DNA of 64,000 nucleotides from a virus (IMGVR_UViG_3300011115_000717:32001-96000); one strand, 5' to 3'. Shown: positions 4,782-53,991, counted from the stretch's first letter. The notes: generated from the letters alone by a model not told the origin. Program-made: numbers and translations.

Positions 4782-5549
4782 ATGAAACCACAATTGGGTG
4801 TCATGTTAACATGTTATGACGAAATTGAAGCTGTAAAATATGCTGTTGAACAATTTAGAATATATTATCCAGATACAAAAATTTATTTAGTTACTGAAAG
4901 TAAAGAACAACAATATATTAAAATTTTTAAAAATGATAAAAATATTAAAGTTAATTATGTAGAAGATAGTATGAGTTTTTATTATAATACTCCAAATTTA
5001 CCTATAATATACCAAACAGCTGATATCCAACTTAAAATTAAAAAAGCAGTTTTATGTTTTTTAACACGATTAAATGATGCAATAAAATATTGTGATTCTG
5101 ATTATATGCTTTTAATGGACCCAGATGTATTAATACGAGGTCAGCTTACTATTTCCAATGAAAAAAAATTATTAGGATCTCTTGCTAATTCTGGTGTCCC
5201 TAATAATATTAAAAATATTCTATCTAACATAGAAGGTGCTATACCTATAGATCGATGGGGAGCCACTCCAGGTATATTTCATACAGAAACATTCAAAAAA
5301 GCTTATTTAAAATTTTTAAGTATAGAAAATTTATTAACTCAATTAACAATGAATTGGTATGCTATGTATGCTCATGATATTATTATACCAATAATGTTTT
5401 CTTTAATTGGAGAAAGAGAATATTACAATAATGATTTTATTGAATGTAATACTGACCCAAATTGGAAAAATACAGATAAAAAATTAGTGCATCATTTTAA
5501 AAAATATTATAAAAACGCAACATATAAATTTCCTTGGTGGAGAGATTAA
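4782..5549 (+). CDS. Putative GT-A glycosyltransferase
   Basis: N-terminal GVMLTCYDE; LLMDPDV DxD motif. Confidence 0.5.
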   Translation: MKPQLGVMLTCYDEIEAVKYAVEQFRIYYPDTKIYLVTESKEQQYIKIFKNDKNIKVNYVEDSMSFYYNTPNLPIIYQTADIQLKIKKAVLCFLTRLNDAIKYCDSDYMLLMDPDVLIRGQLTISNEKKLLGSLANSGVPNNIKNILSNIEGAIPIDRWGATPGIFHTETFKKAYLKFLSIENLLTQLTMNWYAMYAHDIIIPIMFSLIGEREYYNNDFIECNTDPNWKNTDKKLVHHFKKYYKNATYKFPWWRD

Positions 5550-37284: not shown

Positions 37285-39167
37285 CAAATTTATCACCATT
37301 TCAAGAATTTATTTTTATCTCTCGTTATTCACGTTGGATCAACTCACAAAATCGCAGAGAGACGTGGACAGACTGCGTAGATCGTTGGTGGGATTACTTT
37401 ACCACTAAAGTTCCATCGTTACTCGAACGTCCCGATGTACGTGAAGCAATTCTAGCACTCGAAGTACTACCTTCCATGCGTAGTCTCATGACTGCAGGGA
37501 AAGCACTAGATCATGATAACACATGTCTTTATAATTGCTCGTACCTTCCTATTGATTCTATTGATTCATTTGCGGAACTGTTTGTTATTCTCATGAATGG
37601 TACAGGTACCGGGTATTCTGTTGAAAGACAATACACAGATAAACTTCCAACTGTTGCCAACAAGATTGTAAAGAATTTTGATAAGGTAATCGTTGTTGAA
37701 GATTCAAAGGAAGGTTGGGGAGATGCAATTAAAACATTATTCAGCGATCTCTATGCTGGTAAGCATCCTAAATGGGACTTGTCAAAAATTAGAGCATCTG
37801 GTGCACGACTTAAAACTTTTGGTGGTCGTGCTTCTGGTCCTGCTCCATTAGACAATTTATTCAAATTTATAGTAAAGGTCTTCTACAACGCACAGGGACG
37901 CAAACTTTCGGCTCTTGAGTGCCATGACACATGCTGTGCCATCGCTAATGCCGTAATCGTGGGTGGAGTCCGTAGATCAGCCATGATCTCTCTCAGTGAT
38001 CTGGGAGACCGGGAAATTGCCCTGTGCAAGAGTGGCGCATGGTGGGAGCAAGCCGGGTTCCGGTCTTACGCCAATAACTCAGCCGTGTATCGCGGAAGAC
38101 CCCCCATGGGACAGTTTCTTGAGGAGTGGACCTCTCTGTACAACTCCCACAGCGGAGAACGCGGTATGATCAATCGTAGGGCACTTCAAGAGCAAGCAGC
38201 GAAGTGTGGGAGAGACCCGGATTGTGAATATGGTACCAATCCGTGTGCAGAAATTATTCTGAAACCTTTTGAATTTTGCAATCTTTCAACTGTGGTAGTT
38301 CGTACCGATGATACCGCAGCCAGCCTCAAGAAGAAGATTGAAATTGCCACTATTATTGGGACTGTGCAGTCTACTTTTGTGAAATTTCCTTATCTTCGTC
38401 CTGAGTGGAAGAAGAACTGTGAAGAGGAAAGATTGCTTGGTGTTTCCATGACAGGAATTTTTGATAATAAACTTACCAGTGGTCTTGAAGGTAAGCCAAA
38501 ATTAGTTCGACTTCTTGAGAATCTTCGTGACCATGCAACGACAACGAATCTCAAATGGGCAGAGAAGTTGGGTATTAATCCTAGCAAGTCCATTACTTGC
38601 GTCAAGCCAGAAGGCACTACTTCTTGCTTGGTGGATTCTGCTTCAGGTTTACATCCACGCTATGCGGATTACTATTTCCGCAGAATCCGATTGGACAAGA
38701 AAGATCCTTTGTATAACTTGATGAAGGATCAGGGAGTCCCGTGCGAGGATGATGTGATAAATCCAACTTCTACTGCCGTATTTACTTTTGCAATGAAGGC
38801 TCCTCGTGGTACTGTTACTACAGAAGATCTTCGTGCACTTGACCATCTTGATCTGTGGAAAACATATCAAGAACATTACTGTCATCACAAGCCTTCTGTT
38901 ACCGTCAACTATAAGGACAGTGAATTCCTTGAAGTAGGCAATTGGTTATGGGAGAACTTTGATATGGCAACAGGTATTGCATTCTTACCGGGTGGTGACA
39001 ATCATACATACGCTCAGGCACCATTTGAGCAAATTGATTCTGCAACCTATGCAGCCCACCCAAAGGTCAAGGTTAATTTTAATGATCTCATGAAATATGA
39101 GATGGAAGATAATACAGAATCTGCTAAAGAATTTGCTTGCAGTGCAGGTGGTTGTCAGGTAGTATAA
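37281..39167 (+). CDS. nrdJ: Class II (B12-dependent) ribonucleotide reductase, monomeric RTPR type
   Basis: PSMR, YNCSY, GGVRRSA, GTNPCAEI, RLLGVS, CVKPEGT, C-terminal CSAGGC redox pair; no beta-subunit gene adjacent. Confidence 0.9.
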   Translation: MTNLSPFQEFIFISRYSRWINSQNRRETWTDCVDRWWDYFTTKVPSLLERPDVREAILALEVLPSMRSLMTAGKALDHDNTCLYNCSYLPIDSIDSFAELFVILMNGTGTGYSVERQYTDKLPTVANKIVKNFDKVIVVEDSKEGWGDAIKTLFSDLYAGKHPKWDLSKIRASGARLKTFGGRASGPAPLDNLFKFIVKVFYNAQGRKLSALECHDTCCAIANAVIVGGVRRSAMISLSDLGDREIALCKSGAWWEQAGFRSYANNSAVYRGRPPMGQFLEEWTSLYNSHSGERGMINRRALQEQAAKCGRDPDCEYGTNPCAEIILKPFEFCNLSTVVVRTDDTAASLKKKIEIATIIGTVQSTFVKFPYLRPEWKKNCEEERLLGVSMTGIFDNKLTSGLEGKPKLVRLLENLRDHATTTNLKWAEKLGINPSKSITCVKPEGTTSCLVDSASGLHPRYADYYFRRIRLDKKDPLYNLMKDQGVPCEDDVINPTSTAVFTFAMKAPRGTVTTEDLRALDHLDLWKTYQEHYCHHKPSVTVNYKDSEFLEVGNWLWENFDMATGIAFLPGGDNHTYAQAPFEQIDSATYAAHPKVKVNFNDLMKYEMEDNTESAKEFACSAGGCQVV

Positions 39168-39174
39168 ATCATGT

Positions 39175-52920: not shown

Positions 52921-53253
52921 TTATTTATCTTGTGCAGCAAGCTTACATTCCAAATCAACAAGACGATCTAATAGTTCAGATAATGTATCACTGTCAAAAG
53001 TTTGTAATTTTTCTTCGAGTGATACAATTTTATTTTCAAGATTTTGAATTTTAGTAGTAAATTCTTTGCATTTATCGTGAAAATATTGTATAGCGTGTTT
53101 ATTATAATGATCTGGGTCAAGACCTTGTTTGTAATAATTATATTTGTCAGAAGTTTTGGCGACATATGAATTTGTCATTATCTTCTTTACGATTTCTTTG
53201 GCTTCTGTGTCTTCTATTACCAAATCATTAATTGTAAGGTCAGTCTCGTTCAT
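52921..53253 (-). CDS. Hypothetical coiled-coil protein
   Basis: Consensus promoter ends 7 nt upstream. Confidence 0.6.
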   Translation of the reverse strand: MNETDLTINDLVIEDTEAKEIVKKIMTNSYVAKTSDKYNYYKQGLDPDHYNKHAIQYFHDKCKEFTTKIQNLENKIVSLEEKLQTFDSDTLSELLDRLVDLECKLAAQDK

Positions 53254-53260
53254 ATGTTAT

Positions 53261-53288
53261 ATTATACACGATATATTATAGGTGTCAA
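53261..53288 (-). promoter_or_regulatory. Sigma70-type promoter TTGACA-N16-TATAAT
   Basis: Exact hexamers on the minus strand. Confidence 0.8.
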
Positions 53289-53292
53289 TAAC

Positions 53293-53316
53293 AAAGCCCT
53301 GCTTTCACAGGGCTTT
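53293..53316 (-). terminator. Hairpin terminator ending the tRNA-Tyr/tmRNA transcript
   Basis: AAAGCCCTG-TGAAAG-CAGGGCTTT followed by GTTATT. Confidence 0.75.
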
Positions 53317-53613
53317 GGGTCGATTCAGATGCGGGAGACCAAACCCCACTGCTTTAAGCAGCCATTGCTAATTGGTTAGCAATCATGGTTTGCAACTGTT
53401 TATTTGCGTTTCTTGTTACCCGAAACGGACATCTCCTTCATCACTACTACTTGCCAATCGATACCTTAACGGGCCCTTAAGAAATGCCCCACTGCGGCGA
53501 GGACTTGGTTCGGCTTATCAGAAGTCGCAGAACATTCTGAATACACCTAATGGACCCGAGGGGAGTCGAACCCCTGTGTTGTGCAACTCTCGTTCCGATA
53601 TCAACAATGTCAA
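53317..53613 (-). ncRNA. ssrA: Circularly permuted (two-piece) tmRNA
   Basis: Acceptor piece (T-arm AGGGG-TTCGACT-CCCCT then CGGGTCC-A, ending 53551) lies before the coding piece starting GGGCCCG at 53476; 7-bp stem with G3-U70; pk1; tag ORF ending LAMAA*. Confidence 0.88.
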
Positions 53614-53696
53614 TGCAAGAGGAGGGATTCGAACCTTCGTAGAAATAAATCATCACATTTACAGTGTGACCTCGTTGACCGCTTGAGTACTCTTGC
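53614..53696 (-). tRNA. tRNA-Tyr(GTA), long variable arm, CCA not encoded
   Basis: GCAAGAG/CTCTTGC acceptor stem, TCACA-CTGTAAA-TGTGA anticodon arm, GTTCGAATC T-loop. Confidence 0.92.
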
Positions 53697-53700
53697 TTAA

Positions 53701-53991
53701 TTATTTAACAGTAATTTTAACTATGGCGTAATTCTTTTTATCTGATTCAACAAACATCAAAGAATCAATAATTCTATTGTCGGGAATAGATGCTTCTCTT
53801 GCTGACATACCAACTTCAAGATATGGTCCACCTTCAAAGTCAACCATAGTATTATCCGTAGTTCCTCGTGTAAACAAGGTTTCACCTTCAAGAAGGTAAG
53901 TGTAGCTATTCACCTTTCGAATTATTCTTTCGACGTGATAACGGCTTATGCTTCTTGCTATTACTGGATTTTCTTTTTGTGGCTTTAACAT
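53701..53991 (-). CDS. Hypothetical protein (paralog of 31987-32289)
   Basis: SRYHVERIIRK, LEGETLFTR, DFEGGP; start uncertain (53991-54033). Confidence 0.65.
   Translation of the reverse strand: MLKPQKENPVIARSISRYHVERIIRKVNSYTYLLEGETLFTRGTTDNTMVDFEGGPYLEVGMSAREASIPDNRIIDSLMFVESDKKNYAIVKITVK

What the first reader, a model, noticed from the sequence alone, without database searches (positions are those of the whole stretch)
53317..53613. Phage-encoded circularly permuted (two-piece) tmRNA fused behind tRNA-Tyr
Seen, minus strand, in order: tRNA-Tyr; a ~60-nt piece ending in a T-arm (AGGGG-TTCGACT-CCCCT) and CGGGTCC-A at 53551; a 74-nt spacer; then GGGCCCG-TTAAGGTATCGA at 53476. GGGCCCG pairs with CGGGTCC over 7 bp, with G3-U70 and discriminator A (the AlaRS identity elements). 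TTG-GCAA pairs with TTGC-A-CAA as helix 2. A pseudoknot follows (CGTTTC/GAAACG plus GTAAC/GTTGC), then an ORF ending LAMAA-TAA with the stop in a hairpin loop, then a terminator. Established: 3'-piece-first ssrA genes occur in Alphaproteobacteria, some cyanobacteria and some betaproteobacteria; the phage tmRNAs I know are one-piece. Inference: a compact phage trans-translation module, possibly an independent permutation, that relies on host SmpB, RNase P and CCA-adding enzyme. Processing of the tRNA-Tyr 3' end could create the 5' end of the acceptor piece. No smpB is in this window.
Basis: partly seen in the sequence, partly recalled or inferred. Interest (0 to 1): 0.92.

Follow-up and report, generated by a model that had tools for sequence, protein, structure and literature searches.

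The report
Two-piece tmRNA gene in freshwater phage
This uncultured freshwater T4-like phage carries a real "back-to-front" (two-piece) gene for tmRNA, the RNA that frees stalled ribosomes, placed directly behind a tRNA-Tyr gene; such genes are already known from many aquatic phages, so this is a well-supported new example, not a new kind of thing.

Summary
On the minus strand, tRNA-Tyr (53696-53614) is followed 2 nt later by a circularly permuted tmRNA gene. ARAGORN calls it tmRNA*, and Rfam tmRNA_permuted (RF04321) scores 73.2 bits against a cut-off of 47.

At least 29 related IMG/VR viral contigs carry the same gene. Across 23 distinct copies, 96.5% of proposed pairs hold, against 36-45% in slid controls. 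Sixteen pairs show compensatory double changes. The acceptor stem pairs 7/7 in every copy, with six different stem sequences, invariant G3:U70 and invariant discriminator A. The spacer between the two pieces varies from 13 to 167 nt.

Two corrections:
- The tag is most likely the 8-residue ANQLAMAA, with resume codon GCT at 53380, not ARAGORN's 17-mer.
- Phage two-piece tmRNAs are already known. Examples are S-CRM01, S-SSM7, S-CAM3, HTVC008M, phiCbK and Melnitz, and a 2022 survey counted 53 unique ones. This scan has also noted them often on other DNA.

This family passes none of the alpha, beta or cyano lineage models, so its origin is open. No SmpB or CCA-adding enzyme was found in the partial records. 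Processing into two RNAs is inferred, not shown.

The parts
53700..53707 (-). TAAATAAT box, T4-late-promoter-like, 4 nt upstream of tRNA-Tyr. It is the likely start of the tRNA-Tyr/tmRNA transcription unit (inference).
   Evidence: A similar TATAAAT box precedes tRNA-Asn, and a TAAATAAA box precedes the acceptor piece in relatives where tRNA-Tyr is not adjacent.
53614..53696 (-). tRNA-Tyr (anticodon GTA), class II with a long variable arm. CCA is not encoded.
   Evidence: ARAGORN. Rfam tRNA 51.9 bits. Two compensatory changes in the anticodon stem versus relatives.
53551..53611 (-). Acceptor piece, corresponding to the 3' part of a standard tmRNA. Outer P2 strand GACAT 53611-53607. P2a strand TTGC-A-CAA 53586-53579. 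T-arm 53575-53559. 3' acceptor strand CGGGTCC 53558-53552. Discriminator A 53551. It is followed by TTA, not CCA.
   Evidence: RF04321 alignment. Helices 1-4. Register-corrected acceptor stem.
53477..53550 (-). Intervening spacer of 74 nt, predicted to be removed. It folds into two hairpins: TCAGAA...TTCTGA, and CCTCG-CCGCAG-TGGGG at 53502-53487. It holds no conserved ORF.
   Evidence: Length is 13-167 nt in relatives while the flanking mature parts are conserved. Hairpin flagged. Precursor fold. ORF check.
53392..53476 (-). 5' part of the coding piece. 5' acceptor strand GGGCCCG 53476-53470, with G3 pairing U70. P2a strand TTGGCAA 53457-53451. Outer P2 strand ATGTC 53432-53428. Pseudoknot PK1 53427-53392, with stem 1 CGTTTC/GAAACG and stem 2 GTAAC/GTTGC.
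   Evidence: helix 1 has 2 pairs with double changes, helix 2 has 6, PK1 stem 1 has 3, and PK1 stem 2 shows a one-sided U:G to C:G change.
53354..53380 (-). Tag reading frame GCT AAC CAA TTA GCA ATG GCT GCT TAA, encoding ANQLAMAA plus stop. The resume codon GCT (53380-53378) lies 11 nt after PK1.
   Evidence: Family alignment. ARAGORN-residue tags in 15 of the 16 calls it makes on the wider family. ARAGORN's 17-residue reading for the window starts at 53407, inside PK1.
53287..53362 (-). 3' part of the coding piece. Hairpin GCTGC/GCAGT (53362-53348) holds the stop codon in its loop. It is followed by GGGG, then the conserved TCCCGCATCTGAA element with a weak helix TTTGGTC/GACC-C-AAA. The intrinsic terminator AAAGCCCTG/CAGGGCTTT (53316-53293) plus a T-rich tail ends the gene.
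   Evidence: The P5 hairpin is invariant. The 3' helix is 7-9 bp and compensatory in relatives, but only 4-5 contiguous bp in the window subgroup. The terminator shows compensatory differences between subgroups.

Best explanation
The locus is a functional, circularly permuted ssrA gene of an uncultured freshwater T4-like myophage. It is transcribed together with tRNA-Tyr as one unit, from a TAAATAAT box to the terminator at about 53290.

Proposed maturation (inferred):
- The precursor folds so that CGGGTCC (53558-53552) pairs with GGGCCCG (53476-53470) across a 74-nt spacer.
- Host RNase P cuts 5' of G53476.
- A 3' tRNA-processing nuclease trims to A53551.
- Host CCA-adding enzyme adds CCA. 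None of the phage's tRNAs encode it either.
- 3' processing of tRNA-Tyr, 2 nt upstream, leaves the 5' end of the acceptor piece near 53611.

The result would be two RNAs, an acceptor piece of about 61 nt plus CCA and a coding piece of about 185 nt. They are held together by the acceptor stem and helix P2.

Proposed function (inferred): the RNA is charged by AlaRS through G3:U70 and A73. With host SmpB it enters stalled ribosomes, and translation resumes at GCT (53380) to add ANQLAMAA.

What is shown: gene identity, the structure and purifying selection on it. What is inferred: processing, charging, SmpB dependence and tagging.
For: - Two independent detectors agree: ARAGORN tmRNA* and RF04321 at 73.2 bits against a cut-off of 47.
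- 29 further viral contigs carry homologues, scoring 63-85 bits where tested.
- On 23 distinct copies, 96.5% of cells pair, against 36-45% when slid. Sixteen pairs have double changes, against 1-5. The covariation score is 0.288, against at most 0.069. No shuffle in 500 reaches these values.
- The acceptor stem pairs 7/7 in all 23 copies with six distinct sequences. G3:U70 and A73 are invariant.
- Mature parts are near-invariant, while the spacer changes in length (13-167 nt) and in sequence. This is the expected signature of a discarded spacer.
- The tag frame shows synonymous or conservative changes (GCT/GCC, TTA/TTG/ATG) and a fixed 10-11 nt distance from PK1.
- The gene sits between phage genes in a T4-like genome: DNA polymerase phrog_262, tail fibre and RNR.
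- The sequence recurs in freshwater, lake and river metagenomes from at least 10 studies.
- RNA-library contigs lie within the gene, and one bridges the spacer. This is compatible with a precursor.
- The same kind of gene occurs in isolated phages.
Against: - There is no direct evidence of transcript ends, cleavage, alanylation or tagging. The RNA-library data are contigs only and may include DNA.
- No SmpB or CCA-adding enzyme was found in this record or five related ones. All are only 26-60% complete. The host is unknown.
- The RNA fails all lineage-specific Rfam models. The best is beta_tmRNA at 44.4 bits against a cut-off of 84.
- The co-fold energy gain of the two pieces is not significant against shuffles: -13.9 versus -8.1 +/- 3.7 kcal/mol.
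- The 3'-domain helix is weak in the window's own subgroup.
Confidence: 0.85

Rival explanations
1. The RNA is a tRNA-like decoy. Only the alanine-accepting, SmpB-binding domain matters, for example to titrate host SmpB or block host trans-translation, as proposed for the TLD-only RNA of mycobacteriophage DS6A. The tag is not translated.
For: Phage TLD-only tmRNA fragments exist and can inhibit tmRNA (PMC4131195; PMC11915505). No phage SmpB was found.
Against: PK1, the 10-11 nt spacing to GCY-AAC, the tag frame, the stop codon and its hairpin are conserved across the family. Changes are compensatory in PK1 stem 1 and synonymous or conservative in the codons. That conservation is unexplained if only the TLD mattered.
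Confidence: 0.05
2. The two pieces arise by separate transcription rather than by processing of one precursor. The spacer hairpin would act as a terminator for a tRNA-Tyr/acceptor-piece transcript, and an internal promoter would drive the coding piece.
For: The spacer hairpin CCTCGCCGCAGTGGGG followed by CATTTCTTAA was flagged as terminator-like.
Against: The T-run is weak and is not kept in relatives, where the hairpin is followed by CATTTCCCGAAG or the hairpin is absent. No promoter-like site was found in the spacer. One spacer is only 13 nt. An RNA-library contig of 266 nt bridges the whole spacer. RNase P cleavage at G1 needs an upstream leader in any case.
Confidence: 0.04
3. The tag is ARAGORN's 17-residue ANKQLQTMIANQLAMAA, resuming at GCA 53407, rather than the 8-residue ANQLAMAA.
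For: ARAGORN's call for the window and its seven closest relatives. The longer frame is open in that subgroup.
Against: The GCA lies inside PK1, at the last base of stem 1. It reads GTA in all seven close relatives. A 1-nt indel between PK1 and GCY-AAC breaks the long frame in many family members. ARAGORN itself-residue tags in 15 of its 16 calls on the wider family.
Confidence: 0.08
4. The gene is a decaying passenger, a host ssrA fragment picked up by the phage and no longer functional.
For: Fragments of host ssrA occur in prophages because ssrA is an integration site (PMC9004378).
Against: The gene is complete and lies among lytic T4-like genes. It is conserved with compensatory changes in at least 29 contigs from many studies. 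There is no BLAST-level bacterial counterpart in 401 Pseudomonadota genomes sampled.
Confidence: 0.02

Closest known systems
Permuted tmRNAs of T4-like cyanophages (S-CAM3, S-SSM7, S-CRM01)
   Same: Carried by T4-like aquatic myophages, inside or beside tRNA clusters. They have a canonical GGGG-UUCGAnU-CCCC T-arm, no encoded CCA and a short acceptor piece. S-CRM01 also has a tRNA (Leu) directly upstream of the acceptor piece.
   Different: Those pass the cyano_tmRNA model at 74-127 bits. Their spacers are only 4-6 nt and their tags are 19-31 residues. Ours fails cyano_tmRNA, has a 74-nt structured spacer and an 8-residue tag. DNA polymerase is only about 41% identical, and no psbA is present in the held 59% of the genome.
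Alpha-type two-piece tmRNAs of pelagimyophages (HTVC008M, Mosig) and OM43 phage Melnitz (Buchholz et al. 2022, PMC9004378)
   Same: Two-piece tmRNA in aquatic T4-like phages, placed behind a promoter. The proposed role is maintaining translation during infection.
   Different: HTVC008M passes alpha_tmRNA (83.8 bits), has the reduced alpha-type T-loop and encodes CCA. Melnitz and Mosig carry a glutamine riboswitch, and no such hit occurs here. Only the outlier relative L168 just passes alpha_tmRNA, at 55 bits against a cut-off of 50.
Caulobacter phage phiCbK permuted tmRNA
   Same: It passes only the generic RF04321 model (71.4 bits). Its best lineage model is beta_tmRNA, far below cut-off, as with ours.
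   Different: Siphophage of an alphaproteobacterium. It encodes CCA, has a GTGCGAA T-loop and a long GC-rich spacer.
Bacterial two-piece tmRNA (Caulobacter paradigm, Keiler et al. 2000; three lineages, Sharkady and Williams 2004; both cited from PMC9004378 and PMC11915505)
   Same: Same gene topology (acceptor part, spacer, coding part). Same logic of maturation by tRNA-processing enzymes into two base-paired RNAs.
   Different: Those are chromosomal and encoded alongside smpB. The consensus encodes CCA (RF04321 consensus). No bacterial counterpart of this phage family was found in the genomes sampled.
One-piece phage tmRNAs (mycobacteriophage Bxz1 group, Bacillus phage G)
   Same: Phage-borne ssrA without phage smpB (PMC4131195).
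   Different: Standard gene order and four pseudoknots. Viral contigs sharing our T-arm/acceptor 24-mer but carrying standard tmRNAs also exist.

Membership tests
tmRNA, permuted (two-piece) gene form (Rfam RF04321) | Covariance-model score at or above the curated cut-off | tested here: met
   73.2 bits against 47, full-length model match 1-213. Relatives score 63-85 bits.
tmRNA, permuted (two-piece) gene form (Rfam RF04321) | Permuted order: T-arm and 3' acceptor strand lie upstream of the 5' acceptor strand, PK1 and the tag | tested here: met
   The order is kept in all 23 aligned relatives.
tmRNA, permuted (two-piece) gene form (Rfam RF04321) | Acceptor stem formed across the spacer, with AlaRS identity (G3:U70, discriminator A73) | tested here: met
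   7/7 pairs in 23 of 23 copies, six distinct stems, G3:U70 and A73 invariant. Helix 4.
tmRNA, permuted (two-piece) gene form (Rfam RF04321) | T-arm and helix P2 joining the two pieces | tested here: met
   T-arm 100% paired, with 3 pairs showing double changes. P2a 94% paired, with 6. Outer P2 100% paired, with 2.
tmRNA, permuted (two-piece) gene form (Rfam RF04321) | Pseudoknot PK1 just upstream of a resume codon, and a short ORF ending in hydrophobic ...AA with its stop in a hairpin loop | tested here: met
   PK1 stem 1 has 3 pairs with double changes. Stem 2 is 100% paired. The resume codon GCY lies 10-11 nt downstream. The tag is A-N-x-[LM]-A-M-A-A, and the stop sits in the P5 loop.
tmRNA, permuted (two-piece) gene form (Rfam RF04321) | Precursor is cleaved into two RNAs, and the 3' end carries CCA | tested here: inconclusive
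   Only contigs of RNA libraries were available, and they cannot show ends. CCA is not encoded.
tmRNA, permuted (two-piece) gene form (Rfam RF04321) | Alanylation, SmpB binding and trans-translation activity | not testable with these tools
   Needs biochemistry. No smpB was found in six partial phage records.
Alphaproteobacterial two-piece lineage (RF01849) | Score at or above 50 bits; reduced T-loop; encoded CCA | tested here: not met
   The best clan model for the window was beta at 44.4 bits, so alpha scored lower. The T-loop is canonical and CCA is absent. Only relative L168 passes, at 55 bits.
Betaproteobacterial two-piece lineage (RF01850) | Score at or above 84 bits | tested here: not met
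   44.4 bits. The same model gives 40-72 bits to ordinary alpha-type tmRNAs, so this is a generic cross-hit.
Cyanobacterial two-piece lineage (RF01851) | Score at or above 70 bits | tested here: not met
   Below 44.4 bits for the window. Cyanophage copies score 74-127 bits.

The most novel reading that the evidence does not exclude
This freshwater phage family may be a separate lineage of permuted tmRNA that is maintained, and perhaps arose, in phages rather than being captured from alpha, beta or cyanobacterial hosts. Its long spacer, with a sequence-conserved hairpin (CCUCG-N6-CGGGG after CAAGU), may have a role of its own, such as a processing signal or a small RNA.
Probability: 0.15. Interest if true: 0.55.

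Novelty: new member of a known kind. Interest (0 to 1): 0.3.

Why it matters
The finding adds a well-supported, widespread freshwater family to the known phage-encoded two-piece tmRNAs. The family has an unusually clean comparative record, with six covarying acceptor stems and spacers of 13 to 167 nt. It also corrects the automatic tag call.

It could serve as a compact model for three questions:
- How tRNA-processing enzymes mature a tRNA/tmRNA co-transcript.
- Why large lytic phages bring their own ribosome-rescue RNA.
- How permuted tmRNA genes originate.

It does not change current understanding, because phage two-piece tmRNAs are documented in isolates and in a published survey.

Tried and rejected
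- **blastn against isolated phages.** A 4-kb query around the gene found only a 79% match of tRNA-Tyr to Edwardsiella phage pEt-SU. There is no close cultured relative.
- **Bacterial scan with the T-arm/acceptor 24-mer.** It returned only standard one-piece tmRNAs, mostly Clostridia, and tRNA-Ala genes. The motif is shared AlaRS-identity sequence and says nothing about ancestry.
- **Beta ancestry, rejected.** It was suggested by beta_tmRNA being the best lineage model and by the AMAA tag end. The beta model gives 40-72 bits to alpha-type tmRNAs.
- **Class-level search from handle G003.** It sampled small-genome bacteria, not true Gammaproteobacteria, and was uninformative. No genuine beta-type example (84 bits or more) was recovered in 151 Pseudomonadota either, so no direct comparison with the beta lineage was possible.
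- **BLAST of the coding piece against 401 Pseudomonadota genomes.** Only chance matches of 22-30 nt.
- **Co-folding of the two pieces.** It recovers the intermolecular acceptor helix, but the energy gain is not significant. A predicted pairing of the acceptor-piece loop GUUGAUAUCGGA with the 3' tail is not kept in relatives.
- **Laying four metatranscriptome runs.** It gave contigs only, so RNA ends, strand and level cannot be read. Parts without cover mean nothing.
- **SmpB, CCA-adding enzyme and psbA.** None was found, but the records are 26-60% complete.
- **The 3'-domain pseudoknot.** It is not above shuffles in the window's own subgroup.
- **Coding spacer, as earlier scan notes describe in other phages.** No conserved ORF was found in the spacers.
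- **Mechanical ORFs over the locus.** ORFs 53477-53656 (minus strand) and 53372-53686 (plus strand) cross the spacer. The spacer differs by 35 nt between close relatives, so they cannot be conserved genes.
- **Papers and supplements.** The tmRNA database paper's supplements gave no phage breakdown. PMC516066 is not held.

Full report
**What is there**

The minus strand of 53287-53710 reads in this order:
- a TAAATAAT box;
- tRNA-Tyr(GTA) at 53696-53614;
- two bases (TT);
- a 61-nt segment, 53611-53551, that ends in a T-arm (AGGGG/TTCGACT/CCCCT), the strand CGGGTCC and an A;
- a 74-nt spacer, 53550-53477;
- GGGCCCG (53476-53470), followed by a P2 strand, a pseudoknot, a short ORF ending ...LAMAA-TAA with the stop in a hairpin loop, and a terminator hairpin (53316-53293).

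ARAGORN reports a permuted tmRNA (tmRNA*) at 53263-53643. Rfam's tmRNA_permuted model RF04321 matches 53611-53354 over its full length at 73.2 bits, against a cut-off of 47, with E 3.8e-12 for the whole window.

**Context**

The window is part of a 107,928-bp IMG/VR virus record that CheckV estimates to be 59% complete. GC content is about 35%. It encodes a T4-type family B DNA polymerase (phrog_262, E 2.5e-256), tail fibre proteins and ribonucleotide reductase. The polymerase is only about 41% identical to those of cyanomyophages and uncultured marine viruses.

The gene sits among small phage ORFs of unknown function. None of the phage's three tRNA genes encodes CCA. The sequence recurs in lake, river, freshwater and viral metagenomes from at least ten studies, so this is a freshwater phage. 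The host is unknown. No psbA was found in the held part.

**Relatives and covariation**

Pattern scans of IMG/VR found 7 close relatives and 22 more distant ones. Most are called tmRNA* by ARAGORN. All those tested score 63-85 bits with RF04321.

In the close group the mature parts are almost invariant. The spacer is replaced (74 against 39 nt, unrelated sequence) and the terminator differs by compensatory changes.

I wrote the structure from the window row of an alignment of 23 distinct copies (A2) and counted pairs:

| Measure | Proposed structure | Controls |
|---|---|---|
| Cells forming standard pairs | 96.5% | 36-45% when the 3' partners are slid by 1-3 columns |
| Pairs with changes on both sides | 16 of 40 | 1-5 |
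| Covariation score | 0.288 | at most 0.069 |
| Shuffles reaching the observed values | 0 of 500 | |

Double changes occur in the outer P2 helix (GACAT/ATGTC against GGTAT/ATACC), P2a, the T-arm, the acceptor stem and PK1 stem 1 (CGTTTC/GAAACG against CGACAC/GTGTCG).

MAFFT had shifted the 5' acceptor strand by one column in six rows, because of a 1-nt linker indel. With anchor-based extraction, all 23 copies pair 7/7, with the next-best register at 5 or fewer. There are six distinct stem sequences. G3:U70 and discriminator A are invariant, TTA or TTC follows instead of CCA, and spacer lengths are 13, 39, 71-74, 95-98 and 167 nt.

This is the signature of a selected tRNA-like domain whose two strands are brought together across a dispensable spacer.

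**The tag**

ARAGORN reads ANKQLQTMIANQLAMAA for the window, but that frame starts at GCA 53407, inside PK1. The GCA is GTA in all seven close relatives. A 1-nt indel between PK1 and the conserved GCY-AAC breaks the long frame in many relatives. ARAGORN itself-residue tags (ANELAMAA, ANEMAMAA, ANQLAMAA, ANYMAMAA, AAPMAMAA) in 15 of its 16 calls on the wider family.

The conserved GCT at 53380-53378 lies 11 nt after PK1, the spacing usual for tmRNA resume codons (established knowledge of E. coli tmRNA). Variation in the 8-codon frame is synonymous or conservative (GCT/GCC; TTA/TTG/ATG). I therefore read the tag as ANQLAMAA.

**How it most likely works**

- Shown: the gene's identity, its structure and selection on the TLD, P2, PK1 and the tag.
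- Inferred: the steps below.

tRNA-Tyr and the tmRNA precursor are made as one transcript. RNase P cuts 5' of G53476. A 3' tRNA nuclease trims to A53551 and the CCA-adding enzyme completes the end, as is known for T4 tRNAs that lack encoded CCA. Maturation of the tRNA-Tyr 3' end, 2 nt upstream, leaves the 5' end of the acceptor piece.

The two RNAs stay paired through the acceptor stem and P2. They are charged by AlaRS and, with host SmpB, rescue stalled ribosomes while adding ANQLAMAA.

No SmpB or CCA-adding enzyme gene was found in this record or in five related ones, but all are 26-60% complete.

RNA-library evidence is weak. In four freshwater metatranscriptome runs, only assembled contigs could be laid. 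One 266-nt contig lies wholly inside the gene and bridges the spacer. One 211-nt contig covers the coding piece plus 10 nt of spacer. One 4.5-kb contig belongs to a short-spacer relative. Contigs cannot show ends, so processing remains untested.

**The tRNA-Tyr fusion**

It is real here and in the close group plus L152, with a 2-nt gap. L163, L167 and L169 have a 12-nt gap containing TAAATAAA. Other relatives have 0.6-2.3 kb of inserted ORFs between the two genes (DUF6065, a 2OG-Fe(II) oxygenase and unknowns), with the TAAATAAA box directly before the acceptor piece.

Coupling to tRNA-Tyr processing is therefore one solution, not a family trait. S-CRM01 has an analogous tRNA-Leu directly upstream of its permuted tmRNA.

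**Comparison with what is known**

Buchholz et al. 2022 (PMC9004378) describe the two-piece tmRNA of OM43 phage Melnitz. They count 53 unique ARAGORN-permuted tmRNAs among 18,146 phage genomes, 50 of them from aquatic phages. Their list includes phiCbK-like Caulobacter phages, HTVC008M, Mosig, S-CRM01, S-SSM7, S-CAM1 and S-CAM3.

I confirmed RF04321 hits of 71-92 bits in S-SSM7, S-CAM3, HTVC008M, S-CRM01 and phiCbK. The cyanophage copies pass cyano_tmRNA and HTVC008M passes alpha_tmRNA. phiCbK passes no lineage model. This scan's own notes also list many phage permuted tmRNAs on other DNA.

**Lineage**

The window passes none of the three lineage-specific models. The best is beta_tmRNA at 44.4 bits against a cut-off of 84. 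That is not a sign of beta ancestry. The same model gives 40-72 bits to ordinary alpha-type tmRNAs, including 48.3 bits for a Caulobacterales MAG that scores 132.5 with RF04321.

The family shares a canonical T-loop and the lack of encoded CCA with the cyanophage type. Its spacer, however, is long and structured rather than 4-6 nt. The outlier relative L168 has an alpha-like T-arm and a 13-nt spacer. It just passes alpha_tmRNA, at 55 bits against 50, yet carries a tag region identical to the window's. That suggests modular exchange.

No BLAST-level bacterial counterpart was found in 401 Pseudomonadota genomes. Whether this is an independent permutation or a diverged capture cannot be decided with what I could run.

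**Verdict**

This is a real, selected, permuted tmRNA gene and a new member of a known kind. It has a corrected tag, a broad freshwater family and an open lineage question. Interest is modest.

Noticed in passing
window 53261-53288 (-): A perfect sigma-70 consensus promoter (TTGACA, 16 nt, TATAAT; 12 of 12) sits immediately after the tmRNA terminator. It faces the next minus-strand ORF (52921-53253). It looks like an early-type promoter that uses host RNA polymerase.
   Followed up: no
window 53487-53502 (-); A2 columns about 147-168: The 'discarded' spacer contains a sequence-conserved element, CAAGU followed by hairpin CCUCG-N6-CGGGG. It is present in most family members, but absent from the 39-nt and 13-nt spacers. 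There is no covariation, no Rfam match and no conserved ORF. Its role is unexplained; it could be a processing signal or a relic of an ancestral terminator.
   Followed up: partly
L168:1655-1927 (-): A divergent relative has a 13-nt spacer and an alpha-like T-arm (GCGGT-GGCAGTA-ACCGC). Its PK1 stem 2 and tag region are identical to the window's, and it just passes Rfam alpha_tmRNA. This looks like a mosaic of tmRNA modules.
   Followed up: partly
L157, L158, L171, directly upstream of the acceptor piece (e.g. L158 about 5400-5470): In place of tRNA-Tyr, a T-arm-like sequence (GAGGTGCAAGTCCTCC followed by an acceptor-like strand) abuts the tmRNA. ARAGORN calls no tRNA there. It may be a degenerate or unusual tRNA-like element.
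   Followed up: no
L154, L155, L170 (spacer of 167 nt, e.g. L154 about 5325-5490): A long, GC-rich, apparently structured spacer variant, unrelated in sequence to the others. It has no Rfam hit and no conserved ORF.
   Followed up: partly
L002, L009, L010 (viral contigs of 128-184 kb): Standard one-piece phage tmRNAs share the same T-arm/acceptor 24-mer. They carry unusually long 30-residue tags, such as ANDNSYAMTVAEADALLNSFEFEAAEALAA.
   Followed up: no
window 39160-39174 and 53700-53707: Both tRNA-Asn and tRNA-Tyr are preceded within a few bases by TATAAAT/TAAATAAT boxes that resemble T4 late promoters. This suggests late-type transcription of the phage's tRNA genes.
   Followed up: no
L148:506-992 (-), Caulobacter phage phiCbK: A GOLLD RNA (165 bits, above cut-off) lies about 0.5 kb from phiCbK's permuted tmRNA, among tRNA genes.
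   Followed up: no
L010:5368-5405 (-): An abiF RNA motif hit (42.4 bits, cut-off 37) on a 128-kb viral contig that carries a one-piece tmRNA.
   Followed up: no
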